A stretch of 64,000 bases of DNA from Cytophagales bacterium (lineage in GTDB: Bacteria; Bacteroidota; Bacteroidia; Cytophagales; JAHDFW01): assembly GCA_965277185.1 (NCBI GenBank), contig CBDICC010000020.1, positions 63,145 through 127,144 of the forward strand, given 5' to 3'. Position numbers and translations under genes: made by a program. Below the pieces are notes generated by a model. It had not been told where the DNA came from and did no database searches. It saw nothing but the letters and a program-made list of their open reading frames with translations. Positions 3,643 to 16,339 of the stretch are shown here, in pieces. The stretch's first letter is position 1; each line of letters starts with the position of its first letter.

Positions 3643-6600
3643 CTATTCTCGAATTTCCAACCAACCTTTATAACCTTTCTGTAAATCTCCTTCTTCATGA
3701 ACTGGCCAGAATTCATAATAATAAACGCCATCTAAAAGATCTTGACCAGTAAAGTCATTTTGATAAGACTCATTTTGATAAACGAGTACTCCCCAGCGGT
3801 TAAAGATTTTTAATATTCCACCTGTCCGAAATCCAGTCAGGATAAAGAATTCATTTTGACCATCTCCGTTTGGTGTGATGATATTGGGAATTGTACGAGT
3901 AGGATCTACAATCACTAAAATAGAATCCAACGCTGTACATCCGTTTAAAGAAGTGGTTTCAATATAATACCAATTATTAGAGTCAGGCGAAACGGTAATG
4001 TTTTGGGTAACTTCTCCGGTGTTCCAAAGGTAATTTTGCTCTAGGGTAGAAGTTAGCGTCGTTTGTTCTCCAAAATGAATTGCAGAATCTCCGGTAATAA
4101 GAGGGGTTGGCAGTGGTAATATGACCACATATTGTGAATCGGTAAAAGAACATCCAAATGCATTTGTCACAACCACGGTATAGGTTTGATTGGAATCTGA
4201 ATGGATATCAACGATAGAATTGGTGTCTCCGCTATGCCACAAATAAAAATTGTCTCCTGTCATGTTTAACGTAGCGAATGATCCAGTACAAATTGAATCA
4301 GGTCCGGAAATAGAGTCTACTGCTGTAGAGAACACGGATATAGTAGTAGAAGCCTGTCCAAAACAGCCGTTGCTATCTAAGCCAGTAAGGATGTAATTGA
4401 AGGAAGATCCTGGCGAGACTTGGATAGACGATGTCGTATCTCCTGTTGACCAAGAATAGGATGAAGAACCAGATCCAGTTAAAACGGTAGTGTCACCAAG
4501 ACAAATAGAACTAGAAGGGGCAACGGAAATGGAAGGATTAATAACGGTATACGTCCAAACTTGTACCGTATCTGAATCAAAGCAACCAAAACCATTGTCG
4601 GCTTGTACAATATAGGTTTGATTTGAATTCTGAGCTAGGCTAAAGGAAGCAGTGTTTTGCCCAGAGTTCCAACTATAGTTTGTTGCCCCGAGTGCCGTTA
4701 AAGTAATGTTATCGCCAGGACATACAGTATCTTCAGAAACAGAAGCTTGCACTATTGGGTATTCATGAAATGTGACCGCTATGGAGTCTACTAATGGAGG
4801 ACATTGATTCATAGAATCTGAAACAGATACGATGAAATTAGTAGAACTAGAAGGGTGTCCTGAAGTAGTTGCGGCGAGAGAATCGATTAATTCAATTCCT
4901 GGTGACCAATTATAAACAACTGGATCTACTATAAGGCTTGAAGAGGCAAACTCCCATGCTTCAAAATTCGTATTCCAATGGACGGAATTTCGGTTAAGAG
5001 GAGTATACCCAATGCTGCCATCTTCATTTTCAATTCCCAATGTCTTTGCCGTAGGAAAAAAAGAAGGGGAAACATTTTCTACATGAATTTCAATATTATT
5101 TGTTGATTCAATAAGCCAAATAGATCCGTTTATTGAGAAGAATTGATTGTCGCTAACAATATTGTCAAATCGCACCATGAAAATACGATTTCCCGGAGTA
5201 CCAATCGTTCTGTACTCAATAAGACCAAAAAGGATAGGGTTTAAATCAGTCCAACAAAGTGCGATCAGGTTGTTGGGAGAGGCAGCATCAGGAATAAACT
5301 GAGTAGGAAATGCCCCCGCGGTTAATCCGTCAAAAGATATAAATCCTTCTGAGCTGATATTAACAGTATTATACGTGTTACAAAAGAATCCAAAATCAAA
5401 TCCAATAGGTACACTTGTTTGGACACAGTCGTTGCAATTTGAGACGGTAGAATTATTCCATGCCGTTAACGGAAGACTTGCAGGAGGTGGAGTTTCGGTG
5501 TATGGAATTGAATTGATTTGATAGTCATTACATAGTACGTCCTCGTAAGCAAGGGCGCTAAGAATAACAGAGTCGCCTGCACAAATATCCAAATCTTGTG
5601 ATATAGATAGTTGACTTGGAAAGGGAACAACGGTAACCATTGTTTGGGTTGAATCTACACAACCATATCCACTATCTGCGATCAAGGTGAAATTTAAGGA
5701 TTTTGTGGGGTCATGGGTAAGTGAACTGCCTGTGCTATTCGAATTTTCAAAATTCCATGAATAGGAAATGCCTCCGGTTCCGTTTAACGTAACACTTTCT
5801 CCTAAACAAATGGTGTCATCCGATAAGGTGATTTGTGGGATAGCATTAGGGGTAACTTCGATGAAGATGCTGTCGTAGAGATGGAAACAACGGTCGGAAC
5901 TATCGGTGATCGCTAAATTATATTGAACGTTTTCTAACGGTTTTGTCCCGGTCGGATTTAAAGAGCTATCGGCAAGATAATCGCTTGGAGACCATGTATA
6001 ATGTGCATTGGAAACGGGAGAAAGTAAATCTTCATAGAATCGATAAGCCGAAAGGGACCTACTCCAATTACTTTGATTGAATCCAATAGGAGAGGTGGCG
6101 TATTGACCTGTTTTGTTTTCAACTCCCAACGTTCGGGTCGTAGTTCCATTAAAGTCGATAACTTGTTCGATGTGTAATTCAATTGAATTGTCTATTTCCT
6201 TAAGGTGGATTTCTCCGGAGAAAATAGTACCAAAAAAACCGCCGCTTGAACGGTCATATCGAATGATGAAAGTTTGGTCTCCAGGGGTTCCTTCTAGGCG
6301 ATAGCGAATATTAGGTCCGACGGTGAAACCGATCTGAAGATTTGCCCAAAACAAAGCAATAAGATTATTTGGAGCTGAAGCATTAGGTAGGAATTGAGGA
6401 ATTGGCTCCGCGTTTGTTTGCGGATCAAATGAAACCCAGCCATTAGAAGAGATGTTGATTTCATTATAAGATTCACAATAAAAAGTAAAGTCAAATCCTA
6501 TTGGAACATTGGAATCAATACAATCAACACAATTGGAGGTAGTGGAGCCGATCCATCCGGCCTGTCCAACAAATGGATCGAAAGGGATTTCTTCAACCTG

Positions 6601-8358
6601 ATACACATTGCAAAGTGCCGAATCTAGGAAATAAGTTTTTGCTTCCAATGTGATTGAATCTCCACGACACAAATGCATGGAATCTTCCAAATCGATAAAA
6701 TTAATGTGTTGAGCTACGTAAAAATCGATGTTATTTGGTACAACACAACCTGTATTTACATTCAGGACATGCGATACAATATTCTGGCTTTCGGTTAAGA
6801 TAGCTGAAGTAGAGGCCAAGGTGTCATTTGCGATCAATGAAGCGGGATACCAATTGTATTTATATGTTCCAGTATCCGACGGGACTATATTTAGCAACAC
6901 AGTATCTTCAAAACAAATCTCTGTCCCTATGGAATCAATGGAAGTTGAAAATCCTGGAACTACTTTTACCGTGACGGTATCTTTATTGGAGCAAGCAGGA
7001 TCTGTATCACTAGTTACTTCATACACCGTTAATGTGTCAGGAGTTGGAATGGGGTTGGCACATGGATTACAAGAAAAATTGGTTCCAACAATTATGGAAT
7101 CACCCTCAATTGCTCTCCAAGTAAAAACACTTCCTCCTAGTGCATCTAGTTGGGCAGAAATTCCACCGGGGCAAAAAATTTCCTGATCTTCATTAACTCG
7201 GGTAGAAGAGACAAAATTAATGGTATAAGTATATACTTGTGTGGTATAAACATCACACCCATCATCACTGACAGTAACCGTAAACGACTTTGAACCACTA
7301 AAGTTGGATGAATCCAAATGAATGAAAATTCGTGCTGGATTTCCTGATACCGAAGTATAAGTGGCACCTGAAATAACCAGATTTACATTACTTTGAATGC
7401 TTACCTGATCGCTTCCATCTGGATCTTGATATCCAATTTCAAAGTTGACACTATTTTTGTTACAGAGATCGATTGAATTAGGTCCAGTAATGGTTCCAGC
7501 ATCATTGTTTTGAATCCCTGTGGTTGTACTTGGTTGACTATTAGAACATGCCCGAATGATCATTTGTAAATCGCGCGTTACAAATCCGATGAGTACACCA
7601 TCTCGATATTCCTCTACTTTGATGGCCGTTACGGCAACTTGAGGGGAACTTGGTTCGAACGTCATTTCACCAGTGGTAGAATCAAAAGTGTTGAATCCAC
7701 GATTGTCGATAATTGGATAGGTAGCAGTATTTGGCGCATTAAAAGAAACAGTACCCCCTACACCGGTCAACGGTGTAACAAGGGAAAAAACCAGTGAATC
7801 ACCATCCTGATCCAGTCCGCCATGATTGAAATTAAACGAAAGACCACTGCATGCATATACCAATGGGATGGTGGTAAAAACGGGAGAATTGTTGATTAAT
7901 GTGGAATCTAAGTTGTTGAGCATGGCTTCTACATACATACAAGAATTACCGGGATTATCGATGTTCGTTATCATTGCATTTCGAGCACAATCCTGATAAC
8001 TTAAAATCCAATCGGAACATCCTTGAGGCAGCTCGTAGATCAGGCTATAAGTGAATTCTTGAACCCCAGGAAGGTTCCCACTGTTACAACTACTATTGAT
8101 TATTTGAGAGGGACATAATTGTGAAACTTCACGCGAGGAATCTATATTTAGTTGAATCTCTTGATCAAATCCGCAGTTAACAGAACTCAATTCTATAAAG
8201 GCAGCAGTACCAAGATCAACCCCTTCGCAATCCCGATAAAGTTTAAGGACGAACTTAAAAGAATCACCCTGAATGTGGGTATAATACAGATCAATCGCTG
8301 TAAGGTGGGAAGCATTGGCTTTTTTCAAGCTGGAAATGCTTACAACCAAAAACAACAA
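3643..8358 (-). CDS. giant T9SS type-B (gliding-motility-associated C-terminal domain) cell-surface/adhesin-like protein, 1571 aa
   Basis: The C-terminus 'PNIITPNGDGQNEFFI...IFNRWGVLVY...GVYYYEF' matches the T9SS type-B sorting domain. Two internally duplicated modules ('SNCVDCIDSNVPIGFDFTFYCESYNEINISSNGWVSFD' and 'SNCNDCVQTSVPIGFDFGFFCNTYNTVNISSEGFISFD') and multiple Ig-like Ser/Thr-rich repeats are present. The ORF-track start is TTG at 8358 and there is no upstream in-frame ATG. Confidence 0.8.
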   Translation of the reverse strand: MLFLVVSISSLKKANASHLTAIDLYYTHIQGDSFKFVLKLYRDCEGVDLGTAAFIELSSVNCGFDQEIQLNIDSSREVSQLCPSQIINSSCNSGNLPGVQEFTYSLIYELPQGCSDWILSYQDCARNAMITNIDNPGNSCMYVEAMLNNLDSTLINNSPVFTTIPLVYACSGLSFNFNHGGLDQDGDSLVFSLVTPLTGVGGTVSFNAPNTATYPIIDNRGFNTFDSTTGEMTFEPSSPQVAVTAIKVEEYRDGVLIGFVTRDLQMIIRACSNSQPSTTTGIQNNDAGTITGPNSIDLCNKNSVNFEIGYQDPDGSDQVSIQSNVNLVISGATYTSVSGNPARIFIHLDSSNFSGSKSFTVTVSDDGCDVYTTQVYTYTINFVSSTRVNEDQEIFCPGGISAQLDALGGSVFTWRAIEGDSIIVGTNFSCNPCANPIPTPDTLTVYEVTSDTDPACSNKDTVTVKVVPGFSTSIDSIGTEICFEDTVLLNIVPSDTGTYKYNWYPASLIANDTLASTSAILTESQNIVSHVLNVNTGCVVPNNIDFYVAQHINFIDLEDSMHLCRGDSITLEAKTYFLDSALCNVYQVEEIPFDPFVGQAGWIGSTTSNCVDCIDSNVPIGFDFTFYCESYNEINISSNGWVSFDPQTNAEPIPQFLPNASAPNNLIALFWANLQIGFTVGPNIRYRLEGTPGDQTFIIRYDRSSGGFFGTIFSGEIHLKEIDNSIELHIEQVIDFNGTTTRTLGVENKTGQYATSPIGFNQSNWSRSLSAYRFYEDLLSPVSNAHYTWSPSDYLADSSLNPTGTKPLENVQYNLAITDSSDRCFHLYDSIFIEVTPNAIPQITLSDDTICLGESVTLNGTGGISYSWNFENSNSTGSSLTHDPTKSLNFTLIADSGYGCVDSTQTMVTVVPFPSQLSISQDLDICAGDSVILSALAYEDVLCNDYQINSIPYTETPPPASLPLTAWNNSTVSNCNDCVQTSVPIGFDFGFFCNTYNTVNISSEGFISFDGLTAGAFPTQFIPDAASPNNLIALCWTDLNPILFGLIEYRTIGTPGNRIFMVRFDNIVSDNQFFSINGSIWLIESTNNIEIHVENVSPSFFPTAKTLGIENEDGSIGYTPLNRNSVHWNTNFEAWEFASSSLIVDPVVYNWSPGIELIDSLAATTSGHPSSSTNFIVSVSDSMNQCPPLVDSIAVTFHEYPIVQASVSEDTVCPGDNITLTALGATNYSWNSGQNTASFSLAQNSNQTYIVQADNGFGCFDSDTVQVWTYTVINPSISVAPSSSICLGDTTVLTGSGSSSYSWSTGDTTSSIQVSPGSSFNYILTGLDSNGCFGQASTTISVFSTAVDSISGPDSICTGSFATLNMTGDNFYLWHSGDTNSIVDIHSDSNQTYTVVVTNAFGCSFTDSQYVVILPLPTPLITGDSAIHFGEQTTLTSTLEQNYLWNTGEVTQNITVSPDSNNWYYIETTSLNGCTALDSILVIVDPTRTIPNIITPNGDGQNEFFILTGFRTGGILKIFNRWGVLVYQNESYQNDFTGQDLLDGVYYYEFWPVHEEGDLQKGYKGWLEIRE

Positions 8359-8501
8359 TAAGAATAATCTGTAATGTTTGATAGTTGAAGTTTTAAAATG
8401 GGATCATTAATCGAACTATGCAATATAATCAAAAATGTAGATAGCTTAATATTTAAGGAGTACTACAACTTTGATACATGGGAAAGTTTATTCGTTTGAG
8501 G

Positions 8502-9449
8502 CTAATTCCAATCAAGATGTTTTCGCTCCGTCCAATACTCCTCTGGCTTAACCATTAAACCTTTTAATAAATCAATATCATGGGCACTTAATTCAAAGTT
8601 CAATGCTTTTCGATTATTGTCCAATTGGTTACTTTCCGAAGAGCCACTCAAAATCATACTAGGTTGTAGCGAGTCTTCCACAAATCGAAGTGCGATTGCA
8701 TCAAGTCCTACCTGATACTTTTTTGAAAGCTTTTCCAATAGGTTATAAGCGGATTGATAATTTGAATATTGATCATTTCGAAAAACCCGACCATTGGCCA
8801 ATGCTTCTTTGATGATCAGATATTTTCCTTGTAAAGCATCTTTTAATTGATGTAAGCGTTGTTCAAATATGTTATATGTTACCTGAAAACCATCAAAAAG
8901 TGCTTCGTTGTCAATGTGGATGTCCATTGCAGCTAAAATCACTTCATTTTGATGTGGCCCTGTTGAAGAAAGTCCAATTTTGATATTGTGCTGCTTTTTT
9001 AGTTCATAAAGACGTAGAAGAACAGCTTCATTGATTAAAACGCCAGAATCAAATGTGGCAGAATGAATTTGATAGAAATTCAAATAAGGAAGAAAAGCAC
9101 TTGATTGTTCCCATTGCTCGTTGAGCTTGGCAAGAGAATGTTCTTTGATTTCATGTTTAGTAGCTTTTGGGTCAAAATTCGCGACATAAGTATATCCCCA
9201 TTTTGTAGAGATAGAAATGTCTTTATTCCCACTTTCTTCCAGCCATTCTAATAGAATGGTTTCTGCAATTCCATAGCCTGGAGCCGTATCAAAATGACGA
9301 ATACCCTGATTATAGGCATCGGATAATAGAAGTTTGCCTTTTTCCTTAAAAGTATTCAATGAAAATGGCTGATCCGAAGGGTTTCCGTCTTTTCGAATGT
9401 TGATATAATGGGGACGCCCAATGGCCGCGGTACCTAATCCTATGTTCAT
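8502..9449 (-). CDS. aldo/keto reductase family oxidoreductase
   Basis: 315 aa with an ATG start. AKR-like motifs include 'FDTAPGYG' and a TIM-barrel pattern 'LSSTGPHQ'. Confidence 0.7.
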   Translation of the reverse strand: MNIGLGTAAIGRPHYINIRKDGNPSDQPFSLNTFKEKGKLLLSDAYNQGIRHFDTAPGYGIAETILLEWLEESGNKDISISTKWGYTYVANFDPKATKHEIKEHSLAKLNEQWEQSSAFLPYLNFYQIHSATFDSGVLINEAVLLRLYELKKQHNIKIGLSSTGPHQNEVILAAMDIHIDNEALFDGFQVTYNIFEQRLHQLKDALQGKYLIIKEALANGRVFRNDQYSNYQSAYNLLEKLSKKYQVGLDAIALRFVEDSLQPSMILSGSSESNQLDNNRKALNFELSAHDIDLLKGLMVKPEEYWTERKHLDWN

Positions 9450-9516
9450 TTATCCTTGCTTTACGTATTGGTTAGAATTTCACTCCAAAGATAAGCACAA
9501 CGTATTATCCGGAAGT

Positions 9517-10032
9517 TTATATTTTCAACGATTGCACTTTGTCCATATTCAACTTACTCGAGAATCTTTCTTGTAACAGGGTTAATTTAGGGTGAATATA
9601 CGTTTGACAAAAAGAGGCCTCCGGTCTGGTGTATAAATAATTTAGATACGTTTCTTTATTTAGTTTGAAATCCTGAAACATCAATGTTTGTGTTACAATG
9701 TCGTGTTCAAAATCGTTCTGAAGCAAACGAATAATCAATTCACAGTGGTTTTTTTGTTCTTTTGAATACGCATACACAGCGGATCGATATTTTTGACGCA
9801 TCGAGTGATTCGAAGTACTGGAATGAGTGTATAGGTGAATTTCGATCAAATCTTTTAATGAAATAATTGAAGTGTCGAAATGTACAATCACAGCCTCAGA
9901 AAACGGTCGGTTTTCTCCTTGTGAAGCGATCCATCCTTGTTCGACTTTGTCTATTCCTAATAAAGATTGAAAAACGCCCTCCGTACACCAATGGCATCCA
10001 CCACCAAATCCTATTTTTTCAAAATTAGCCAA
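9517..10032 (-). CDS. divergent MsrA-family (peptide methionine sulfoxide reductase A-like) paralog
   Basis: N-terminal 'FGGGCHWCTEGVF' is a His variant of the MsrA 'GCFWC/GCFWG' active-site motif. The core aligns with the canonical MsrA at 13348..13878 ('VIVHFDTSIISLKDLIEIHLYTHSSTS..KYRSAVY' against 'VVQVTFDADIISLQDLITIFMTSHDPTT..QYRSVIY'). TTG start at 10032 overlaps the thioredoxin stop by 8 nt. Confidence 0.6.
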   Translation of the reverse strand: MANFEKIGFGGGCHWCTEGVFQSLLGIDKVEQGWIASQGENRPFSEAVIVHFDTSIISLKDLIEIHLYTHSSTSNHSMRQKYRSAVYAYSKEQKNHCELIIRLLQNDFEHDIVTQTLMFQDFKLNKETYLNYLYTRPEASFCQTYIHPKLTLLQERFSSKLNMDKVQSLKI

Positions 10033-10345
10033 TCAATTGGTTCATTTTTAATCGCAGAGAATGTTCGGTAACCAAACCGTTGGCACGTTCCATGGATTCA
10101 ATGTTTTTAATGAAAATTAACGTAGGAACAGTCTTTACTCCAAATTGTTGAGCCAATTCCGGATTATGCAAAGCATTGGTTTTGAGAAAAATCGCTTTTC
10201 CCTGAAACTCATGTGCTGCCCGTTCCAAAATAGGAGCAAGTGATCTACAAGGATTACAAGTGTCCGTATAAAAATCGAGTACTATTGGAACATCCTGATT
10301 TTTCAGTTGAGCTTCGAATTCGGAGGGATCTTTTACTTCAATCAT
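10025..10345 (-). CDS. thioredoxin
   Basis: 106 aa with an ATG start. 'DFYTDTCNPCRSLAPIL' is a CxxC active site in a thioredoxin-fold context, and 'VPTLIFIKN' is the classic cis-Pro loop. Confidence 0.8.
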   Translation of the reverse strand: MIEVKDPSEFEAQLKNQDVPIVLDFYTDTCNPCRSLAPILERAAHEFQGKAIFLKTNALHNPELAQQFGVKTVPTLIFIKNIESMERANGLVTEHSLRLKMNQLIG

Positions 10346-10416
10346 AACTATAATTTGATTAAACTTAACTTAATACATTTGATGTGAACTAATCAAATCC
10401 GTTCTAATTAGAAGGG

Positions 10417-11985
10417 CTATGAACTACAAGATAACATAGAGCAACCTACTTTTTCTTTTGCCCAATCAGGACGTTTGGCAAACCATTTTTGCATATCTGG
10501 TTGCTCGTTATAAGGTCGTTGCAGCAATTGATATAATTCATCAATCAATTCATAATTTCCCTTGTCTGCCTCATCGATAGCCAATTGTGCCATGTAATTC
10601 CGAAGGACGTATTTAGGATTTACCAACTTCATCTTTTCGCTTCTTTCGGCCTCATTCAGTCCTTCAGCTTTGATATGTGATTGATATTCTGCAAACCAAG
10701 CGGCCCATTGATCTTTAAATTCCAATAGTTCTGTCTCAGATTTATAGCTAGATTGTTCAATAATACTCCAAAATTGGTCTAAATTAAGTTCTGTTTGAAG
10801 AGTAGATAAATCTCGGAAAAACAACGTCATGTCAATTTCTGAAGTACCCATTAAGTCGGTTAGATTTTGTACAAAAGCAGTAGGCAAGTGACTTTGATAC
10901 AAACCTAATTTTTCCAACATCATCACATGATAATCGTTCAAATAGGATTCTTTGTATTCCATCAGAATGTCTTCCAGCGGTTTAACCTCTTCGATTAGTG
11001 GATATATGGCGTTGGCCAATTGCAAAAGATTCCAAAGACCAATTTCGTGTTGGGCTCCAAAACGATATCTTTTATGCGATGCATCGGTGGTATTGGGTGT
11101 CCAGTATGGATCATAATTCTCCAACCAACCATAGGGACCATAATCAATGGTTAACCCGAGGATGGACATATTATCGGTATTCATTACCCCGTGTACAAAT
11201 CCAACCCGTTTCCAATGAACGATCATGTCTTTGGTTGAAGTGGCAACTTCTTTAAAAAAGGCCAGATAGGACTCTTTTGAAGGAGCACCTAAATGTGGAA
11301 AGTGATGTTTAAGCGTGTAATCAGCCAGTTTACGGAGATTTGGAAGGTCTTTGCGTGAAGCAAAAATTTCAAAATTACCAAAACGAATAAAACTAGGCGA
11401 AACACGGCAAACTACAGCCCCTTTTTCATCTTGTACATTTCCATTATACAATATATCTCTAGGAACTAGATCTCCTGTTTCCACCAATGATAGTGCCCGA
11501 GTTGTAGGAACGCCTAAATGATGCATCGCTTCGCTGCACAAATATTCTCGTACAGACGAGCGCAACACTGCAAGTCCATCGGATCGCCTTGAATAGGGAG
11601 TAGGACCAGAACCTTTCAATTGAAATTTCCAGTTTTGATCCTTGATATCCAATTCGGCAATGGTAATTGCTCGTCCATCACCTAACTGTCCAGCCCAGTT
11701 TCCAAATTGATGTCCACCATAGCACATGGCATAAGATGGAAAATTATGAAAAGGTTTAGCGCCGCTCATGATGTCTCGTAATTCATCCATATTATCTACC
11801 TCCACATCTAATTCCTTCAAAAATTCTTTAGAAAGATGGATTAATGCTGGATTTCCAGGTTTTTTGGTAGGAACATAGGAGAAAAAAGCCTCGTGTACAT
11901 TCCTAGATTCATTGTTCTGAATATCATCCGCGGGAAGTTCCGATACAAAATGAGGACTGGGAGATATATCTAAAAAGTTAATCAT
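10417..11985 (-). CDS. selO: protein adenylyltransferase SelO (YdiU/UPF0061 family)
   Basis: Hallmark 'YGGHQFGNWAGQLGDGRA' motif with the kinase-fold body. The ORF-track start is TTG at 12066. The ATG at 11985 ('MINFLD...') gives an N-terminal length matching E. coli YdiU. Confidence 0.85.
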   Translation of the reverse strand: MINFLDISPSPHFVSELPADDIQNNESRNVHEAFFSYVPTKKPGNPALIHLSKEFLKELDVEVDNMDELRDIMSGAKPFHNFPSYAMCYGGHQFGNWAGQLGDGRAITIAELDIKDQNWKFQLKGSGPTPYSRRSDGLAVLRSSVREYLCSEAMHHLGVPTTRALSLVETGDLVPRDILYNGNVQDEKGAVVCRVSPSFIRFGNFEIFASRKDLPNLRKLADYTLKHHFPHLGAPSKESYLAFFKEVATSTKDMIVHWKRVGFVHGVMNTDNMSILGLTIDYGPYGWLENYDPYWTPNTTDASHKRYRFGAQHEIGLWNLLQLANAIYPLIEEVKPLEDILMEYKESYLNDYHVMMLEKLGLYQSHLPTAFVQNLTDLMGTSEIDMTLFFRDLSTLQTELNLDQFWSIIEQSSYKSETELLEFKDQWAAWFAEYQSHIKAEGLNEAERSEKMKLVNPKYVLRNYMAQLAIDEADKGNYELIDELYQLLQRPYNEQPDMQKWFAKRPDWAKEKVGCSMLSCSS

Positions 11986-12068
11986 ATAATTGTATAAACA
12001 GAGTAGAAAAAGAGGATCAAAGTTCCGAAAATTTAAGGGTAAGAAACGAATCTCACCATTTGTCAAGA

Positions 12069-12320
12069 ACTGAAGAATCGTAAAAAAAAGTTATTCAGTT
12101 GATCAGTTATTCAGTTGTTAGTTAAGAAAGAATAATTGGAAACCGAAGAACTGAAGAATCGTTAAAAAAGTTATTCAGTTATTCAGTTGATCAGTTATTC
12201 AGTTGCTAGTTAAGAAAGAATAATTGGAAACCAAAGAACCGAAGAATCGTAAAAAAAAAGTTATTCAGTTGATCAGTTATTCAGTTGCTAGTTAAGAAAG
12301 AATAATTTGAAACCAAAGAA
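12069..12320. repeat. three tandem copies of a roughly 85-bp A-rich repeat unit (core 'gttattcagttgatcagttattcagttgctagttaagaaagaataattggaaaccgaagaactgaagaatcgtaaaaaaaa')
   Basis: Read directly from the sequence. The copies start near 12069, 12148 and 12238. Copy 2 carries an extra 'gttattcagtt' sub-repeat. Confidence 0.8.
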
Positions 12321-12424
12321 CTGAAGAACCAAAGAACTGAAGAACCGAGAAACCGAAGAACTGAAAAACTGAAAAACTGAAAAACTGAAAAACTGAAAAA
12401 CCGAAGAACCGAAAAACCGAAAAA
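12300..12424. repeat. octanucleotide microsatellite (GAARAACY)n, about 13 units
   Basis: The units read gaagaacc aaagaact gaagaacc gagaaacc gaagaact (gaaaaact)x4 gaaaaacc gaagaacc gaaaaacc gaaaaact. The tract abuts the stop codon of the 12425..12694 gene. Confidence 0.8.
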
Positions 12425-12694
12425 CTAAATTTCCTTATCACAATTCAAGCAAATATATTTATCTTTCAAATTCTTCGTGGTACGAACGTGCTCGTCTACA
12501 ACTTTACTAATGAAGCTATTGTATACAGTCCCTCCAGGTGCAGCTTGCTTGTCCTTTTTAATTTCATAATATTTCCCGTCCCATTCACTATGTCCCCAAC
12601 AAATAGGGCAAGTACCTTCAGGTGACGGTCCAACCGTTTGTCCCGAGTCTTTTTTAGAAAAGTAACTTTTGATATTTTCAAGTATTATGCTCAT
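12425..12694 (-). CDS. small Cys-rich protein (putative zinc-ribbon; 'CPICWGH...CLNCD'), hypothetical
   Basis: 89 aa with an ATG start and two CxxC pairs. It is the last gene of the msrB-msrA-tlpA-like string. Confidence 0.45.
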   Translation of the reverse strand: MSIILENIKSYFSKKDSGQTVGPSPEGTCPICWGHSEWDGKYYEIKKDKQAAPGGTVYNSFISKVVDEHVRTTKNLKDKYICLNCDKEI

Positions 12695-12722
12695 AGTCAG
12701 TGGTGTTATGTGTTAGTTGAGG

Positions 12723-13325
12723 TTATTGTTTCTTATTCTTATCATTGGCAGATCCATCCAGTTGATCGGTGAGATATCGAATCGCTGCTTCTGGATCTAA
12801 ATTAAAATCTTCGAAAACGATGTTATTCTTTTGATCAATAAAAATAAACCAAGGCGTTCCTTTTGTATGATAGTCAGCCATGATCGTAGACATGCCTTTT
12901 CCGGGGTCATGTCCAAAAGGAATGTGCAGCTTATATTTTTCCTGTGTGTGACGGATTTTGTCATAACTGTTCTTTTCAAATCCTTCAAACACCGTTTGCA
13001 CCGCTAAAAACTGAATTTGGTCATTATCTTTGAACGCTTCCGTAATTTTTTGCAAAGCAGGCAATCCGTGACTATGACATCCTGGACACCAATGTTGATA
13101 ACAAAAGATTACTTTAAACTTGCCTTCAAATTGAGCTAATCGATAAGGTTTAGCTTCCTTACCTTCTGCGTCAATCCATTGATCTACCCGCAACTCCGGT
13201 GCAGGTTTGATTTTTTGCTTTTTGGCCACAGGCATAGGATTTCCATTTATATTAATTAATTGCGTCAAAAAAGGACTTTGCATACTTGATAAAACCAACA
13301 AGATTCCTAAATATAAACTGCTCAT
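12723..13325 (-). CDS. secreted TlpA-like/redoxin thioredoxin-fold thiol-disulfide oxidoreductase
   Basis: 200 aa. The N-terminus 'MSSLYLGILLVLSSMQSPFL' is a signal peptide or anchor. The active site is 'WCPGC' ('FCYQHWCPGCHSHGLPAL'). Confidence 0.7.
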   Translation of the reverse strand: MSSLYLGILLVLSSMQSPFLTQLININGNPMPVAKKQKIKPAPELRVDQWIDAEGKEAKPYRLAQFEGKFKVIFCYQHWCPGCHSHGLPALQKITEAFKDNDQIQFLAVQTVFEGFEKNSYDKIRHTQEKYKLHIPFGHDPGKGMSTIMADYHTKGTPWFIFIDQKNNIVFEDFNLDPEAAIRYLTDQLDGSANDKNKKQ

Positions 13326-13347
13326 AATTTCGTGAAATTAAAGTTAA

Positions 13348-13878
13348 TTAGGCTAAGTAATGCGAATACATATTTCGCAACTTTGCAATTTTAGGGTCGA
13401 TGACCACTCTGCAATACCCTGCTCCACTATTTTCTTTATAAAAGTCTTGATGATCTTGGTCAGCTTCAAAAAAGATGCTTGCCTCAGAGACTTCAGTTAC
13501 AATGGGGTCATCGAATATTTCCTGTACCTTTTGAATAACGTTTTCAATCACTTGCTTTTGTTCTGCGTCATGATAATAAATTACCGAACGGTATTGGGTT
13601 CCTGAATCTGCCCCTTGACGATTTAACGTGGTTGGGTCGTGACTGGTCATGAAAATGGTGATCAAATCTTGTAAGCTGATAATATCTGCATCAAACGTAA
13701 CTTGAACAACTTCTGCATGACCTGTTTTTCCTGAACAAATCTCGCGATAAGTCGGAGTTCCTGGGACCGTTCCCCCTGTATAACCGGAGACAACATTTGT
13801 TACTCCTTTTAACTGCTGCACAATGGCTTCTATACACCAAAAGCAACCTCCTCCGAATGTAGTTACTTGAGTTTTCAT
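13348..13878 (-). CDS. msrA: peptide-methionine (S)-S-oxide reductase MsrA
   Basis: 'FGGGCFWCIEA' active site, 'GHAEVVQVTFD' and 'GTQYRSVIYY'. 176 aa with an ATG start, separated from msrB by 2 bp. Confidence 0.9.
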   Translation of the reverse strand: MKTQVTTFGGGCFWCIEAIVQQLKGVTNVVSGYTGGTVPGTPTYREICSGKTGHAEVVQVTFDADIISLQDLITIFMTSHDPTTLNRQGADSGTQYRSVIYYHDAEQKQVIENVIQKVQEIFDDPIVTEVSEASIFFEADQDHQDFYKENSGAGYCRVVIDPKIAKLRNMYSHYLA

Positions 13879-13880
13879 AT

Positions 13881-14327
13881 TTATTTTTTTTCTAATTTAA
13901 TGGATTCTGAGTTAATACAATATCTTAATCCACTTGGTTCAGGTCCATCGGGAAAAACATGCCCTAAGTGTCCGTCGCAAGTGTTGCAAAGTGCTTCTAC
14001 CCGTACCATTCCATACGAAGTATCTTTATGGTATTTGATCGAATTGTCTTTAATAGGCTGAGTGAAACTTGGCCATCCACTTCCAGAATCAAACTTGATA
14101 GTTGAATCAAAAAGTTTGGTGTTGCAGCCAATGCAACTATATTCTCCGGGATCATATGCATGGCATAATTCGCCGCTTCCTGCACGTTCCGTTCCTTTTA
14201 ATCGGCTAATTCGAAATTGTTCCGGAGTAAGTATTGCTTTCCATTCTTCTTCCGTTTTGTCCATCCGTCGTTCTGGTGCCGGACTGCCGTTGTTGGCATA
14301 GTGTATTATATCTTTCCAGGTAAACAT
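13881..14327 (-). CDS. msrB: peptide-methionine (R)-S-oxide reductase MsrB
   Basis: SelR/MsrB motifs 'CIGCNTKLFDS..KFDSGSGWPSF' and 'CNTCDGHLGHVFPDGP', with both Zn-binding CxxC pairs and 'RYCINS'. Confidence 0.9.
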   Translation of the reverse strand: MFTWKDIIHYANNGSPAPERRMDKTEEEWKAILTPEQFRISRLKGTERAGSGELCHAYDPGEYSCIGCNTKLFDSTIKFDSGSGWPSFTQPIKDNSIKYHKDTSYGMVRVEALCNTCDGHLGHVFPDGPEPSGLRYCINSESIKLEKK

Positions 14328-14476
14328 AAGCTTGAGATGATATTAGGTGATAGATGTATAATTGTCTTGTTTTAGGTTATTTTGTGTTTGTTATAATACA
14401 AATATACTACTGGAAAAGTTTAGATTAGGTGTTCAATTTAATAATAGAAGTGTTCAATTTTCTTCTGTCTAAAGTA

Positions 14477-15310
14477 CTATGAATGTTGAGTTCGAAATTG
14501 CTCAGGGGTCTCCTCATTGTGTTTTTTGAAGAAGTGAGAGAAGGATTGTGAATCGGAAAAATTCAATTCATACGCGATGTTTTTGATTAATTCACGGGTA
14601 TGCATCAATTGTTTCTTGGCGTATACATTGCGCCGATGTGTTATTAAATCGCTTGGTTTTCGATGGTAATGTTTACTAAATAATTCAGAAATCCGTTTTG
14701 GAGCTACCCTCATTACCTGCGCATATTCTGAAACTTTGGTCAATTGTTTAAAGTTGGTTTCAACTAAATACTGAAATTCCCGAATGACCCGTAAATCCAT
14801 ATAGTCTACGTGTAAATCAAACTCAGAGGACACGTGGATTTTTTGACTCAACAGCATCAATCGCTGAAATGAATTTTGAACCAAAGGTTTCGAGAATGAA
14901 TTGGACCCTAATGGAAGTTCTTTTACAATGAGCGCCCACAATTGCTCGAATTCGGTCGTTTGATCCTTACTTAACTTAATTTTAGGTACACTATTCAAAA
15001 AATGGTAGCCATAAAAAACCAACAGATAATCTCCTGCCTGATTCAGTGAAGTATCAATTCCCAAAAACGTTTTATCGAAATGAATCACCCGAGCATGATG
15101 AAAGTGAGCCTTCACTTCCATGTGAAATTCGGATATAAATAAGATACAATTTTCCTCTAGAGGATAGATTTTGCCATCGATTTCTATTTCCGCTTGAGCA
15201 TGTTTATTCCAAATGACATATAAACAATCAATTTTCGAATCCGGCATTAAATGAATGGATTGATCTTTTAGATCTTCTGCGATGAAATGACTGTTTGATG
15301 AATTTGGCAT
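14477..15310 (-). CDS. AraC-family transcriptional regulator
   Basis: 277 aa. C-terminal tandem HTH ('ISELFSKHYHRKPSDLITHRRNVYAKKQLMHTRELIKNIAYELNFSDSQSFSHFFKK') with an N-terminal cupin-like effector domain. Confidence 0.8.
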   Translation of the reverse strand: MPNSSNSHFIAEDLKDQSIHLMPDSKIDCLYVIWNKHAQAEIEIDGKIYPLEENCILFISEFHMEVKAHFHHARVIHFDKTFLGIDTSLNQAGDYLLVFYGYHFLNSVPKIKLSKDQTTEFEQLWALIVKELPLGSNSFSKPLVQNSFQRLMLLSQKIHVSSEFDLHVDYMDLRVIREFQYLVETNFKQLTKVSEYAQVMRVAPKRISELFSKHYHRKPSDLITHRRNVYAKKQLMHTRELIKNIAYELNFSDSQSFSHFFKKHNEETPEQFRTQHS

Positions 15311-15436
15311 CGTTCAATTAATAGTTCGAATCGATAAGCAATATAAGTCAATTTACGTAGAGAAAAAATAAGTAATGGCTCAGGGTGGAATGAAGTTTGC
15401 TTTTGTGCTGATATAAAATTCGTAACTTGCTCGCAT

Positions 15437-16339
15437 ATGGCACATAATTTAAATCGTAAAATTCGTCTCTCTTTTTTCCTAGTAGCTGTTTTAACCGCTT
15501 CTATTGTAGGTGTACACTACTTGAATCTTTATGCTGGAGACCGATTCTATAGTAAAATCACTACTGATGCGGCACAATCGGTTATTATTAAGAAAAGTGA
15601 TAGTCAGAAAAAGAAAAATGCCCATGTCCGTACCAATGTGTCGGTGAATGGAAGTTCGTATAAAATTCGATATACATTTAGAGACCATAAAGAGAAGACA
15701 CAAACGATCAATTTAGAATATCCACGTGTAGCCACAGATCAGAAAATCCGAAAATTTGGAATACCCAGCGCCTTTTTAACTGGAATTAAAAATACAGCCG
15801 CAAATCAAGCAATGTTGCAACGTCAAATGAAATCGGGAATGTATATAATGAAAAAAGGAAAATTGACTCCGGATTACAATGCGATGATCAAATTTTACAA
15901 ACCTTATGCTACACCTATTGCGGAATTTATCGAGCGAGCCGTGGGTAAAAATGCAGATATTAATACCAAGGTAGAGTTTGCATTGAAGTTTTGTCAGGAC
16001 ATTCCATATTGCAGACCACCGATTACGTTTAATGGAAAGATAACAGCAGGATTATTCTCTCCACCCCACACATTAGTAAATATGTATAGTGATTGCGACT
16101 CAAAATCACTTTTATTAGCCTCTATTTTAAAACATTTTAAAACCCCTCCACTCGTTTTGGTTCATGTGCCCGGACACATGTTTATGGCGATGAAAGGAGT
16201 GCCAAGAACCTATCAGAAATCCCTTAAGTACGAAAACGAGACTTATATCTTTTTGGAACCAACCGGACCACGTCGATTCAGAATAGGCGAATCGAACAAA
16301 AAATATAAGCGTAATAAAGGAATTACCAGAGTTTTGTAA
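15437..16339 (+). CDS. hypothetical membrane-anchored protein (possible transglutaminase-like Cys/His fold)
   Basis: 300 aa with an N-terminal TM helix 'LSFFLVAVLTASIVGV'. The Cys...His pair 'DCDSKSLLLASIL' ... 'HVPGHMFMAM' is only suggestive. It is divergent from the AraC gene. Confidence 0.4.
   Translation: MAHNLNRKIRLSFFLVAVLTASIVGVHYLNLYAGDRFYSKITTDAAQSVIIKKSDSQKKKNAHVRTNVSVNGSSYKIRYTFRDHKEKTQTINLEYPRVATDQKIRKFGIPSAFLTGIKNTAANQAMLQRQMKSGMYIMKKGKLTPDYNAMIKFYKPYATPIAEFIERAVGKNADINTKVEFALKFCQDIPYCRPPITFNGKITAGLFSPPHTLVNMYSDCDSKSLLLASILKHFKTPPLVLVHVPGHMFMAMKGVPRTYQKSLKYENETYIFLEPTGPRRFRIGESNKKYKRNKGITRVL

What the first reader, a model, noticed from the sequence alone, without database searches (positions are those of the whole stretch)
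9517..12066. selO - thioredoxin - MsrA-like paralog operon with overlapping, translationally coupled reading frames
SelO (a protein AMPylase implicated in redox homeostasis) is followed after 71 nt by a CNPC thioredoxin. The thioredoxin stop overlaps by 8 nt the TTG start of an MsrA-family paralog. This physically links an AMPylating pseudokinase to the thiol and methionine-sulfoxide repair machinery. It sits next to a second msrB-msrA-tlpA unit, which makes the 9.5-15.3 kb region an oxidative-protein-repair island.
Basis: partly seen in the sequence, partly recalled or inferred. Interest (0 to 1): 0.55.

Follow-up and report, generated by a model that had tools for sequence, protein, structure and literature searches.

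The report
Oxidative protein-repair island with SelO
The three genes are real and lie in a gene cluster for repairing oxidised proteins that many Bacteroidota share; what is new is a divergent repair enzyme (MsrA-like) paired with its own unusual thioredoxin, and not the SelO link, which was already reported.

Summary
On the minus strand lie selO (10417-11985; the ORF extension to 12066 is probably spurious), then a 71-nt gap, a CNPC thioredoxin (10025-10345), and an MsrA-family paralogue (9517-10032). The paralogue's only possible start, a TTG, overlaps the trx stop by 8 nt.

- The unit is one segment of a co-directional island: AraC, msrB, msrA, tlpA-like, a 4-Cys ORF, selO, trx, msrA-like, AKR (8502-15310).
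- In 80 species-representative loci centred on the MsrA-like gene, selO lies within 10 kb in 30, msrA in 48 and msrB in 44.
- In 80 selO-centred metagenome loci, an msr gene is nearby in 14. That is 13 of the 21 loci whose SelO is at least 54% identical to this one.
- No selO-centred locus has a thioredoxin next to selO.
- The CNPC thioredoxin belongs to a small subfamily (DFYT[DE]xCNPC). In 8 of 8 arrangements it sits next to, or one gene from, an MsrA-family gene.
- The MsrA-like protein belongs to an uncharacterised subfamily with motif GCHWC. It has Phe->His and Tyr->Trp changes in the substrate pocket and two loop deletions.

Enrichment of msr genes near selO was published in 2012. SelO AMPylation of Grx and Trx proteins is also published. 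Interest is modest.

The parts
14477..15310 (-). AraC-family transcription regulator at the head of the island; the likely regulator (inferred)
   Evidence: Pfam HTH_18 61 bits. An orthologous AraC lies directly upstream of msrB on the same strand in L007 and L008 (65% identity). AraC/HTH_18-family regulators occupy the same position in L163 and L165.
13881..14327 (-). msrB (methionine-R-sulfoxide reductase)
   Evidence: Pfam SelR 159 bits; TIGR00357 171.9 bits against a cutoff of 113. The only exact Bacteroidetes-type -7 motif (TAnnTTTG) in the upstream half of the island lies 71 nt before its start.
13348..13878 (-). Canonical msrA (GCFWC type)
   Evidence: Pfam PMSR 202 bits; TIGR00401 185.8 bits against a cutoff of 108. 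It starts 2 nt after the msrB stop.
12723..13325 (-). TlpA/ResA-like thiol:disulfide oxidoreductase (WCPGC) with a hydrophobic N-terminus
   Evidence: Pfam AhpC-TSA 41 bits and Redoxin 40 bits. Orthologues (44-60% identity) follow msrA in 11 of 80 MsrA-like-centred loci.
12425..12694 (-). Conserved 89-aa four-cysteine ORF (CPICWGH...CLNCDK) of unknown function
   Evidence: No Pfam or NCBIfam hit. Homologues are present in 10 of 80 MsrA-like-centred loci. One lies directly after the CNPC trx in L165 and L167, and 88-aa ORFs without Pfam hits occupy the same position in L171 and L172.
12065..12426 (.). Tandem-repeat block filling the 439-nt gap before selO: an ~88-nt unit x3.2 and an 8-nt unit x13.5
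   Evidence: It is unique within the window and has no Rfam match. In relatives the gene upstream of selO is only about 10-60 nt away.
10417..11985 (-). selO/ydiU (protein AMPylase), 522 aa from the ATG at 11985, ending ...GCSMLSCSS
   Evidence: Pfam SelO 410 bits; NF000658 533 bits against a cutoff of 431. 324 bits to solved SelO/YdiU structures (6k20, 6iii, 6eac), with GQLGDGRA, LKGSGPTPYSR, HGVMNTDNM and IDYGP conserved.
10025..10345 (-). CNPC thioredoxin, a member of the DFYT[DE]xCNPC[KR] subfamily
   Evidence: Pfam Thioredoxin 78 bits; below the TIGR01068 cutoff (81.7 against 96.8). The subfamily comprises about 25 clusters. It is next to, or one gene from, a PMSR gene in 8 of 8 arrangements.
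9517..10032 (-). MsrA-like paralogue (GCHWC subfamily) with a TTG start overlapping the trx stop by 8 nt
   Evidence: Pfam PMSR 66.8 bits; below the TIGR00401 cutoff (61.8 against 108.1). The subfamily alignment has 36 invariant columns. The AF2 model has pLDDT 91.4, and only MsrA folds match it, at TM about 0.7.
8502..9449 (-). Aldo/keto reductase, a recurrent partner of the MsrA-like gene
   Evidence: Pfam Aldo_ket_red 78 bits. Orthologues (45-56% identity) are present in 27 of 80 loci, 26 of them within 3 kb and all on the same strand. P0241 is a 483-aa MsrA-like+AKR fusion. An exact TAnnTTTG motif lies 36 nt upstream, so the gene may also have its own promoter.

Best explanation
The selO-trx-msrA-like unit is the downstream half of a conserved Bacteroidota island for repairing oxidative damage to proteins. 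All genes in the island run in the same direction: AraC, msrB, msrA, tlpA-like, a 4-Cys ORF, selO, trx, msrA-like and AKR.

The CNPC thioredoxin is most likely the dedicated electron donor that recycles the oxidised MsrA-family enzyme encoded next to it. Here that enzyme is the GCHWC MsrA-like protein, and the overlapping stop and start codons probably couple its translation to that of trx.

The MsrA-like protein keeps the MsrA fold, the catalytic Cys, a CxxC-positioned second Cys, and the Glu and Tyr that bind the sulfoxide oxygen. Two substrate-pocket residues are changed in every subfamily member (Phe->His, Tyr->Trp) and two loops are shortened. It is therefore probably an active sulfoxide reductase with a shifted substrate preference, not a redundant copy or a dead enzyme.

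SelO is a co-regulated member of the island. By analogy with published SelO substrates (E. coli GrxA; yeast Trx3, Grx2 and Prx1), it probably AMPylates a small redoxin. In Flavobacteriaceae the candidate is the Grx-like protein encoded directly upstream of selO. In this genome, which lacks that gene in the window, the CNPC thioredoxin is the obvious candidate.

Shown here: gene identities, conserved synteny, the trx-Msr pairing, and the state of the active-site residues. Inferred: co-transcription, electron flow from Trx to the MsrA-like protein, and any AMPylation.
For: Synteny:
- MsrA-like-centred loci from 80 species carry, within 10 kb, canonical msrA in 48, msrB in 44, selO in 30 (29 on the same strand, 28 within 3 kb), an alpha/beta-hydrolase+OsmC fusion in 34, AKR in 27 and a Grx-like gene in 21.
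- selO-centred loci have an msr gene nearby in 14 of 80. That is 13 of 21 where SelO is at least 54% identical to this one, and 1 of 59 below that.
- Naive binomial P is 7e-10 or lower. This ignores shared ancestry.

trx-Msr pairing:
- CNPC-trx subfamily members are followed by a GCHWC MsrA-like gene in the window, L008, L161/162 and L163/164.
- In L168-170 the trx is followed by a 170-aa PMSR gene whose motif was not checked.
- L003 has the MsrA-like gene one gene away.
- In L165/166 (with a 1-nt gap) and L167 (with a 4-nt overlap) the trx is preceded by a canonical GCFWC msrA; in L171 and L172 it is preceded by PMSR genes whose motif was not checked.
- Junctions range from an 8-nt overlap to a 2-nt gap.

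MsrA-like active site:
- C13, W15, C16, E46 and Y82 are invariant.
- H14 replaces the Phe of GCFW. W34 replaces the Tyr of the GY motif.
- There are 11-residue and 4-residue deletions relative to MsrA.
- The fold is confirmed.

Other support:
- Fusions exist: TlpA-like+MsrA-like+MsrB (P0245, with the PilB domain order), TlpA-like+MsrA-like (P0248) and MsrA-like+AKR (P0241).
- Up to three PMSR paralogues (GCFWC, GCFWG, GCHWC) sit in one cluster in L061, which argues for non-redundant roles.
- The SelO catalytic motifs are intact.
- Published SelO substrates are Trx-fold redoxins (PMC8097203; PMC12663964; PMC11140801).
- A Grx-like gene lies directly upstream of selO in at least 14 loci.
Against: - There are no expression data, so the operon structure is inferred from gene direction, gaps and synteny.
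- A 439-nt repeat-filled gap separates selO from the upstream half of the island, but no exact Bacteroidetes -7 motif is seen there. An exact TAnnTTTG motif lies upstream of AKR.
- selO and the CNPC trx are adjacent only in this genome. The sole other co-occurrence found is L168, where selO lies about 6 kb upstream.
- Many MsrA-like loci have neither selO nor any msr neighbour, for example L001, L002, L016, L017 and L037.
- Many MsrA-like genes have no Trx-fold gene beside them, so a dedicated thioredoxin is not obligatory.
- The synteny counts are dominated by Flavobacteriaceae and are not corrected for phylogeny.
- The fusion proteins come from an unannotated representative library and could be gene-calling artefacts.
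Confidence: 0.6

Rival explanations
1. SelO, the CNPC thioredoxin and the MsrA-like protein form a specific regulatory module, in which SelO AMPylates this Trx (or the MsrA-like enzyme) to switch methionine-sulfoxide repair on or off. Their adjacency reflects that direct enzyme-substrate relationship.
For: - SelO AMPylates Trx-fold redoxins in other organisms: GrxA at active-site Tyr13 (PMC8097203) and yeast Trx3, Grx2 and Prx1 (PMC11140801).
- A Grx-like gene is the commonest immediate upstream neighbour of Msr-linked selO.
- This window has no such Grx-like gene, and the CNPC Trx is the only small redoxin in the island.
- The subfamily motif YTDTCNPC places Tyr and Thr next to the active site.
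Against: - selO-trx adjacency occurs in none of 80 selO-centred loci. No other locus examined has them adjacent, and only L168 carries both, about 6 kb apart.
- The CNPC trx goes with PMSR genes whether or not selO is present.
- No MsrA has been reported as a SelO substrate in the papers read.
Confidence: 0.2
2. The GCHWC MsrA-like enzyme is not a protein-methionine repair enzyme. It reduces a different, probably small-molecule, sulfoxide or a related oxidised sulfur compound. It works with the AKR and, in other genomes, with the hydrolase-OsmC fusion as a detoxification unit. The CNPC Trx is its specific reductant.
For: - Two substrate-pocket residues are replaced in every member (Phe->His, Tyr->Trp), and the loop that carries the conserved Asp before QYRS is shortened.
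- It scores below the MsrA equivalog cutoff.
- It coexists with one or two canonical MsrAs in the same cluster.
- AKR is adjacent or fused.
- An alpha/beta-hydrolase+OsmC fusion lies directly downstream in 34 of 80 loci.
- Ergothioneine genes egtB and egtD, whose pathway passes through a sulfoxide intermediate (my own knowledge), follow in about 10 loci.
Against: - PilB-like fusions, TlpA-like+MsrA-like+MsrB, put this enzyme exactly where MsrA sits in protein-repair enzymes.
- Its commonest neighbours are msrB and msrA.
- The catalytic Cys, Glu and Tyr are all retained.
Confidence: 0.25
3. The local order selO-trx-msrA-like is a lineage-specific rearrangement inside a stress island and has no functional meaning beyond shared regulation. 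The 8-nt overlap is incidental.
For: - Gene order within the island is fluid among lineages.
- In the closest relatives of this Trx (58-60% identity) the order is msrB-msrA-trx-4Cys ORF-BrxC-family (PF11009) gene, without selO.
- The repeat block upstream of selO suggests recent rearrangement.
Against: The tight trx/PMSR junctions recur in independent arrangements. That is hard to explain without selection for co-expression.
Confidence: 0.1

Closest known systems
Msr-thioredoxin operons and fusion proteins (Neisseria PilB: Trx-MsrA-MsrB; msrAB operons)
   Same: An MsrA-family enzyme is encoded beside, or fused to, a Trx-fold reductant and MsrB. The tri-domain protein P0245 (TlpA-like+GCHWC MsrA-like+MsrB) has the PilB domain order. 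PilB MsrA structures are among the best fold matches (3bqh and 3bqe, TM 0.71).
   Different: Here the parts are separate genes. The MsrA member belongs to a divergent GCHWC subfamily and the Trx has TCNPC instead of WCGPC. The cluster also carries selO, an AKR and an AraC regulator.
Canonical MsrA (PF01625 / TIGR00401)
   Same: The fold is the same. The catalytic Cys within G-C-x-W, the second Cys at +3 as in GCFWC-type MsrAs, and the Glu and Tyr that bind the sulfoxide oxygen are all retained.
   Different: - Identity is 31% to the cluster's own MsrA and 18-26% to solved MsrAs.
- Phe->His and Tyr->Trp are invariant in the subfamily, and two loops are deleted.
- It scores 61.8 bits against the TIGR00401 cutoff of 108.1.
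- No publication mentioning the GCHWC motif in this context was found.
SelO/YdiU neighbourhoods and substrates (Dudkiewicz 2012; Sreelatha 2018 as cited in reviews; Fmp40 2024)
   Same: Enrichment of msrB (significant) and msrA (a trend) near bacterial selO was reported from 265 genomes (PMC3281104). SelO modifies Grx and Trx proteins. This island fits both findings.
   Different: That earlier analysis worked at COG level over a 22-kb window. It did not resolve the GCHWC paralogue, the Grx-like gene directly upstream of selO, or the CNPC thioredoxin, and it sampled few or no Bacteroidota. No SelO substrate has been tested in Bacteroidota.
E. coli thioredoxin TrxA (WCGPC)
   Same: The length is about 106 aa. 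The Trx fold signature, the CxxC motif and the cis-Pro region (VPT) are conserved.
   Different: The active-site stretch is DFYTDTCNPCR where TrxA has DFWAEWCGPCK. Both Trp residues are lost and Gly is replaced by Asn. The subfamily is small and discrete, with profile scores falling from 144 bits or more to 116, 97 and lower.

Membership tests
SelO/YdiU protein adenylyltransferase (PF02696, NF000658) | Profile match above the curated cutoffs | tested here: met
   Pfam 410 bits (gathering score 22.8); NF000658 532.9 bits against a cutoff of 431. The equivalog models NF045949 and NF040880 are below their cutoffs (392 against 850; 380 against 900).
SelO/YdiU protein adenylyltransferase (PF02696, NF000658) | Kinase-like catalytic motifs: the Gly-rich GQLGDGRA, the Lys in LKG(S/A)G, the catalytic loop HGVMNTDN, and the metal-binding Asp in (I/L)DYGP | tested here: met
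   All are identical or conservative in the alignment to the solved SelO 6k20. The assignment of roles to these motifs rests on my own knowledge of the SelO structures.
SelO/YdiU protein adenylyltransferase (PF02696, NF000658) | C-terminal redox Cys or Sec at the third-from-last position (the Cxx> motif) | tested here: met
   The protein ends ...GCSMLSCSS. The motif is described in PMC3281104.
SelO/YdiU protein adenylyltransferase (PF02696, NF000658) | AMP (or UMP) transfer to protein substrates | not testable with these tools
   This needs a biochemical assay.
MsrA, peptide-methionine (S)-S-oxide reductase (PF01625, TIGR00401) | Domain match and fold | tested here: met
   Pfam PMSR 66.8 bits (gathering score 23.7). 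The AF2 model has pLDDT 91.4, and the 45 PDB hits with E <= 0.001 are all MsrA apart from one entry (7c13_A) whose title names a monothiol glutaredoxin; TMq 0.57-0.71.
MsrA, peptide-methionine (S)-S-oxide reductase (PF01625, TIGR00401) | Equivalog-level profile score (TIGR00401 cutoff 108.1) | tested here: not met
   It scores 61.8 bits. The cluster's canonical MsrA scores 185.8.
MsrA, peptide-methionine (S)-S-oxide reductase (PF01625, TIGR00401) | Catalytic Cys in the N-terminal G-C-F-W-G/C motif | tested here: met
   C13 in GGGCHWC is invariant in 20 of 20 subfamily members.
MsrA, peptide-methionine (S)-S-oxide reductase (PF01625, TIGR00401) | The hydrophobic methyl pocket Phe (GCFW) and the sulfoxide-binding Tyr of the GY motif (E. 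coli F52 and Y82; numbering from my own knowledge) | tested here: not met
   These positions are His14 (invariant) and Trp34 (present in at least 90% of members) instead.
MsrA, peptide-methionine (S)-S-oxide reductase (PF01625, TIGR00401) | The sulfoxide-binding Glu (HxE) and Tyr (QYRS) | tested here: met
   E46 and Y82 are invariant and align with the Glu and Tyr of poplar MsrA, S. meliloti MsrA and the window's own MsrA.
MsrA, peptide-methionine (S)-S-oxide reductase (PF01625, TIGR00401) | Reduction of Met-S-sulfoxide | not testable with these tools
   This needs an enzyme assay.
Thioredoxin (PF00085, TIGR01068) | Domain match above the curated cutoffs | tested here: inconclusive
   Pfam 78.4 bits is above the gathering score of 23.5. 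The TIGR01068 equivalog score of 81.7 is below its cutoff of 96.8.
Thioredoxin (PF00085, TIGR01068) | The WCGPC active-site motif | tested here: not met
   The motif is TCNPC. The CxxC pair is kept but both flanking Trp residues and the Gly are replaced, and this holds across the subfamily.
Conserved Bacteroidota Msr/SelO stress island (defined in this work) | Co-directional msrB, msrA, selO and the GCHWC MsrA-like gene within about 10 kb | tested here: met
   The window carries all four on one strand within 4.8 kb. The same set occurs in loci such as L007, L014, L031, L053, L059, L061 and L075-L077.

The most novel reading that the evidence does not exclude
GCHWC MsrA-like proteins are a functionally distinct class of sulfoxide reductase. 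Their remodelled pocket (His for Phe, Trp for Tyr, shortened loops) targets a substrate other than ordinary protein Met-S-sulfoxide. Candidates are a small-molecule sulfoxide, or a sulfoxide or sulfenate from the ergothioneine pathway or from lipid oxidation. In some lineages they are served by a private CNPC thioredoxin. SelO tunes the system by AMPylating that thioredoxin, or the Grx-like protein that replaces it in Flavobacteriaceae. If so, this island would be a natural entry point to the physiological substrates of bacterial SelO.
Probability: 0.15. Interest if true: 0.65.

Novelty: new variant of a known kind. Interest (0 to 1): 0.38.

Why it matters
The physiological targets of bacterial SelO are still poorly defined, and known substrates come mainly from E. 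coli extracts and yeast. A conserved island places selO directly beside small redoxins and three kinds of MsrA-family enzyme. That gives concrete candidates to test: the CNPC Trx, the monothiol Grx-like protein and the GCHWC MsrA-like enzyme.

Separately, the GCHWC subfamily is present in at least 598 species genomes. It is currently annotated simply as MsrA although it fails the equivalog model and has changed pocket residues. Its real substrate is an open and easily tested question.

None of this overturns current understanding. It refines a known association.

Tried and rejected
- Exact-sequence look-ups of the window's MsrA-like protein and Trx, meant to identify the source contig, found nothing. 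The organism is inferred only from best hits: Crocinitomix and Putridiphycobacter, i.e. Flavobacteriales near Crocinitomicaceae.
- A single-sequence homologue search with the Trx returned only itself and one relative, because of the word-index limit. It was repeated with a 4-sequence alignment.
- The sigma-70 promoter and terminator scan found fewer promoter-like sites than in shuffled sequence and no convincing terminator, so it was uninformative for a Bacteroidota genome. I replaced it with a search for the TAnnTTTG -7 motif, which is only suggestive.
- An Rfam scan of 8000-16000 found nothing.
- A literature search for 'GCHWC' gave only irrelevant hits. Searches for selO together with msrA/msrB operons returned only the 2012 paper. 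A 2026 YdiU paper mentions MsrA only as background.
- P0262, which looked like a high-scoring 'fusion', is a tandem of two canonical GCFWC MsrA domains and not a GCHWC member. It was discarded.
- Pseudogene or dead-enzyme reading: rejected. All 36 subfamily-invariant residues, including the catalytic Cys, are present in the window copy.
- Reading the CNPC Trx as a general housekeeping thioredoxin: rejected, because of its discrete small subfamily and its exclusive Msr context.


Full report
**1. Observation**

ORF listing and direct reading of the minus strand confirm every stated feature.

- selO occupies the ORF 10417-12066 (Pfam SelO 410 bits; NCBIfam NF000658 'YdiU family' 533 bits against a cutoff of 431). 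Homologues align from residues 1-13 of the 522-aa form that begins at the ATG at 11985. The further 27 codons up to the TTG at 12066 run into a tandem-repeat block, so I take 11985 as the start.
- After a 71-nt gap (10346-10416) comes a 106-aa thioredoxin (10025-10345) with the active site TCNPC.
- Its last codons are ATT GGC TAA. Shifted by one base, the same stretch reads TGA TTG GCT AAT, which opens the 171-aa MsrA-family ORF (9517-10032). The TTG is therefore the first codon after an in-frame stop. It is also the only start codon upstream of the subfamily-invariant N-terminus KIGFGGGCHWC. The 8-nt overlap is real.
- The neighbouring msrB (13881-14327), msrA (13348-13878) and TlpA-like gene (12723-13325) are also as described.

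**2. The three proteins**

*SelO.* It matches solved SelO/YdiU structures at 324 bits. The Gly-rich loop, LKGSGPTPYSR, HGVMNTDNM and IDYGP are all conserved. It ends in ...SCSS, the Cxx> motif discussed for this family (PMC3281104). It looks catalytically competent.

*The MsrA-like protein.*
- It is 31% identical to the island's canonical MsrA. It passes the Pfam PMSR threshold but scores 61.8 bits against the TIGR00401 equivalog cutoff of 108.1, whereas the canonical copy scores 185.8.
- It has many relatives at 53-67% identity in Bacteroidota and in marine Gammaproteobacteria such as Colwellia, Psychromonas and Vibrio.
- An alignment of 20 members has 36 invariant columns.
- Compared with MsrA, the catalytic Cys, the Trp of GCxW, a second Cys at +3, the sulfoxide-binding Glu and the Tyr of (Q/K)YRS are kept.
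- The Phe of GCFW is always His. The Tyr of the GY motif is Trp in at least 90% of members. An 11-residue loop and a 4-residue loop are deleted, the latter including the Asp before QYRS.
- An AlphaFold2 model is confident (pLDDT 91.4). It matches only MsrA structures in the PDB, at TM about 0.7 and 18-26% identity.
- A profile search of 1.84 billion representatives finds 96 representatives at E <= 1e-30.
- The motif GCHWC does not occur in this context in the searchable literature.

*The thioredoxin.*
- It is below the TIGR01068 cutoff (81.7 against 96.8).
- It belongs to a small, discrete subfamily. A profile of four members retrieves about 25 clusters at 144 bits or more, after which scores fall to 116, 97 and lower.
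- Nearly all members carry DFYT[DE]xCNPC[KR] in place of DFWAxWCGPCK.

**3. Neighbourhoods centred on the MsrA-like gene**

I took 80 loci, one per species, with flanks of up to 10 kb, and compared them with the window's proteins by tblastn and by ORF clustering.

| Gene within 10 kb | Loci (of 80) |
|---|---|
| Canonical msrA | 48 (all on the same strand) |
| msrB | 44 (all on the same strand) |
| selO | 30 (29 on the same strand, 28 within 3 kb) |
| Alpha/beta-hydrolase+OsmC fusion | 34 (within 3 kb in all 34; directly downstream in at least 27) |
| Window-type AKR | 27 |
| 81-aa monothiol Grx-like gene (Pfam Glutaredoxin 27.7 bits) | 21 |
| TlpA-like gene | 11 |
| 89-aa four-Cys ORF | 10 |
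| CNPC thioredoxin | 2 |

The typical Flavobacteriaceae order is msrB> msrA> (tlpA>) grx-like> selO> (small genes / second msrA / AKR>) msrA-like> hydrolase-OsmC> AKR or egtB-egtD. Gammaproteobacteria have msrB> msrA> msrA-like>.

The window has AraC> msrB> msrA> tlpA> 4-Cys ORF> [repeats] selO> trx> msrA-like> AKR>. The finding is therefore one segment of a conserved island spanning 8502-15310.

**4. Neighbourhoods centred on selO**

I took 80 metagenome loci whose SelO is 47-63% identical to the window's.

- An Msr-family gene lies within the available flanks in 14.
- The association is clade-specific: 13 of the 21 loci with SelO at least 54% identical, against 1 of the 59 below that.
- In the linked loci, msrA or the Grx-like gene typically ends 10-60 nt before selO.
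- An HMM for thioredoxins finds a classical Trx within 10 kb of selO in only 2 of 80 loci, and never adjacent.
- Naive binomial probabilities are very small, but they ignore shared ancestry. The linkage is seen in Flavobacteriaceae and Saprospiraceae (including Lewinella), with selO about 8 kb away in one Chitinophaga locus, and in the window's own lineage, which is near Crocinitomicaceae judging by best hits.

**5. What the CNPC thioredoxin goes with**

I recovered eight distinct arrangements.

- Followed by a GCHWC MsrA-like gene at junctions from an 8-nt overlap to a 2-nt gap: the window, L008 (Crocinitomix), L161/162 and L163/164.
- L168-170 have the same layout, but I did not check the motif of that 170-aa PMSR gene.
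- L003 (Saprospiraceae) has the MsrA-like gene one gene away.
- Preceded by a canonical GCFWC msrA with a 1-nt gap (L165/166) or a 4-nt overlap (L167); L171 and L172 share the L167 layout, but the motif of their PMSR genes was not checked. In all of these a homologue of the four-Cys ORF, or an ORF of the same size in the same position, follows.
- selO is present in only two of the eight: the window, and L168, where it lies about 6 kb away.

This thioredoxin is an Msr-cluster thioredoxin, not a selO partner. Because Msr enzymes are recycled by thioredoxins (established biochemistry), the simplest reading is that it is the dedicated reductant of the adjacent MsrA-family enzyme.

**6. Fusions**

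Among high-scoring representatives of the GCHWC family:
- P0245 is TlpA-like + GCHWC MsrA-like + MsrB, the PilB domain order.
- P0248 is TlpA-like + MsrA-like.
- P0241 is MsrA-like + AKR.
- P0250 is MsrA-like (GSCYWC) + an Acetyltransf_CG (GNAT) domain.

The first two argue that the enzyme works as an MsrA-type partner of MsrB with a Trx-fold donor. The AKR fusion and the frequent AKR adjacency argue that the AKR at 8502-9449 belongs to the unit. These fusions come from an unannotated library and have not been checked for assembly or gene-calling errors.

**7. Transcription**

No expression data are available.

- The sigma-70 scan is uninformative.
- Exact Bacteroidetes -7 motifs (TAnnTTTG) occur only upstream of msrB (14406) and AKR (9493).
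- The 439-nt gap before selO holds two tandem-repeat arrays that are absent elsewhere in the window. It has only weak motif matches.
- Whether selO-trx-msrA-like is read through from msrB or has its own promoter cannot be decided.

**8. Comparison with what is known**

- Dudkiewicz et al. 2012 reported msrB as significantly enriched, and msrA as a trend, within 22-kb windows around selO/ydiU in 265 genomes (PMC3281104). The general association is therefore not new.
- SelO AMPylates E. coli GrxA at active-site Tyr13 and thereby affects S-glutathionylation (review PMC8097203; PMC12663964).
- Yeast Fmp40 AMPylates Trx3, Grx2 and Prx1 (PMC11140801).
- The Grx-like gene directly upstream of selO in Flavobacteriaceae, and the CNPC Trx directly downstream of it here, fit that biochemistry. 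Neither has been tested.
- No paper I read reports an MsrA as a SelO substrate.

**9. Verdict**

- The selO-Msr linkage is recurrent, though already known in outline.
- The island reading is right but should extend to the AKR and the AraC regulator.
- The thioredoxin is better explained as the reductant of the MsrA-like enzyme than as evidence for a SelO-Trx module.
- What is new is the resolution of two uncharacterised subfamilies, GCHWC MsrA-like and CNPC thioredoxin, and their tight pairing.

I rate this a new variant of a known kind, with modest interest (0.38).

Noticed in passing
window 12065-12426: Two tandem-repeat arrays fill the 439-nt gap upstream of selO: an ~88-nt unit x3.2, each copy containing AACTGAATAACTGATCAACTGAATAAC, and an 8-nt unit AACTGAAA/AACCGAAG x13.5. 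They occur nowhere else in the 64-kb window and have no Rfam match. Relatives have only 10-60 nt at this position.
   Followed up: partly
window 12425-12694 (minus strand): An 89-aa ORF with four Cys (CPICWGH...CLNCDK) has no Pfam or NCBIfam match. Homologues recur in Msr islands: in 10 of 80 MsrA-like-centred loci, and directly after the CNPC trx in L165 and L167 (with same-sized unannotated ORFs in that position in L171 and L172). It may be a zinc-ribbon-like redox or regulatory partner.
   Followed up: partly
L014, L018, L031, L032, L042, L053, L059, L061, L063, L064, L084, L085, L090, L135 (the gene directly upstream of selO): An 81-aa monothiol glutaredoxin-like protein (active site CHKT) is the commonest immediate upstream neighbour of Msr-linked selO. 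In L034, L054 and L077 it is fused to an Acetyltransf_CG (GNAT) domain. In L007, L078 and L095 the GNAT domain alone sits upstream of selO. The gene is absent from this window.
   Followed up: partly
L006, L031, L054, L057, L068 and others; L089:1564-2325: An ~84-aa ORF without a Pfam match, carrying a conserved ...LKPCEMP... motif, often lies directly upstream of the MsrA-like gene. In L089 it is in frame with the MsrA-like gene with no intervening stop, so it may be a fusion.
   Followed up: no
L003:3632-4858, L031:10497-11717 and about 32 other loci: A ~406-aa alpha/beta-hydrolase+OsmC fusion lies within 3 kb of the MsrA-like gene, and directly downstream of it in at least 27 loci (34 of 80 loci in all; 33 on the same strand). 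It is absent from this window.
   Followed up: partly
L013, L042, L048, L063, L075, L168, L169 (downstream of the MsrA-like gene): Genes resembling the ergothioneine biosynthesis genes egtB (FGE-sulfatase+DinB_2) and egtD (Methyltransf_33) follow the MsrA-like/hydrolase-OsmC pair in several lineages. The pathway's sulfoxide intermediate (my own knowledge) makes this a lead to the MsrA-like substrate.
   Followed up: no
L165:2617-4023, L168:4560-5966: A 468-aa Grx-Grx-pyridine-nucleotide-disulfide-oxidoreductase fusion lies in the same islands, and directly upstream of the CNPC trx in L168-170. It may be a dedicated reductase for the CNPC thioredoxin.
   Followed up: no
L014, L018, L025, L031-L033, L042, L053, L059 (upstream of msrB): In Flavobacteriaceae the island is preceded by an ~800-aa protein of unknown function and a divergently oriented protein with HD and PycTM (Pycsar-effector-like transmembrane) domains.
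   Followed up: no
window 3643-8358 (minus strand): A 1571-aa ORF rich in repeated beta-type domains lies directly downstream of the AKR. It is probably a secreted or surface protein. It appears unrelated to the island and was not analysed.
   Followed up: no
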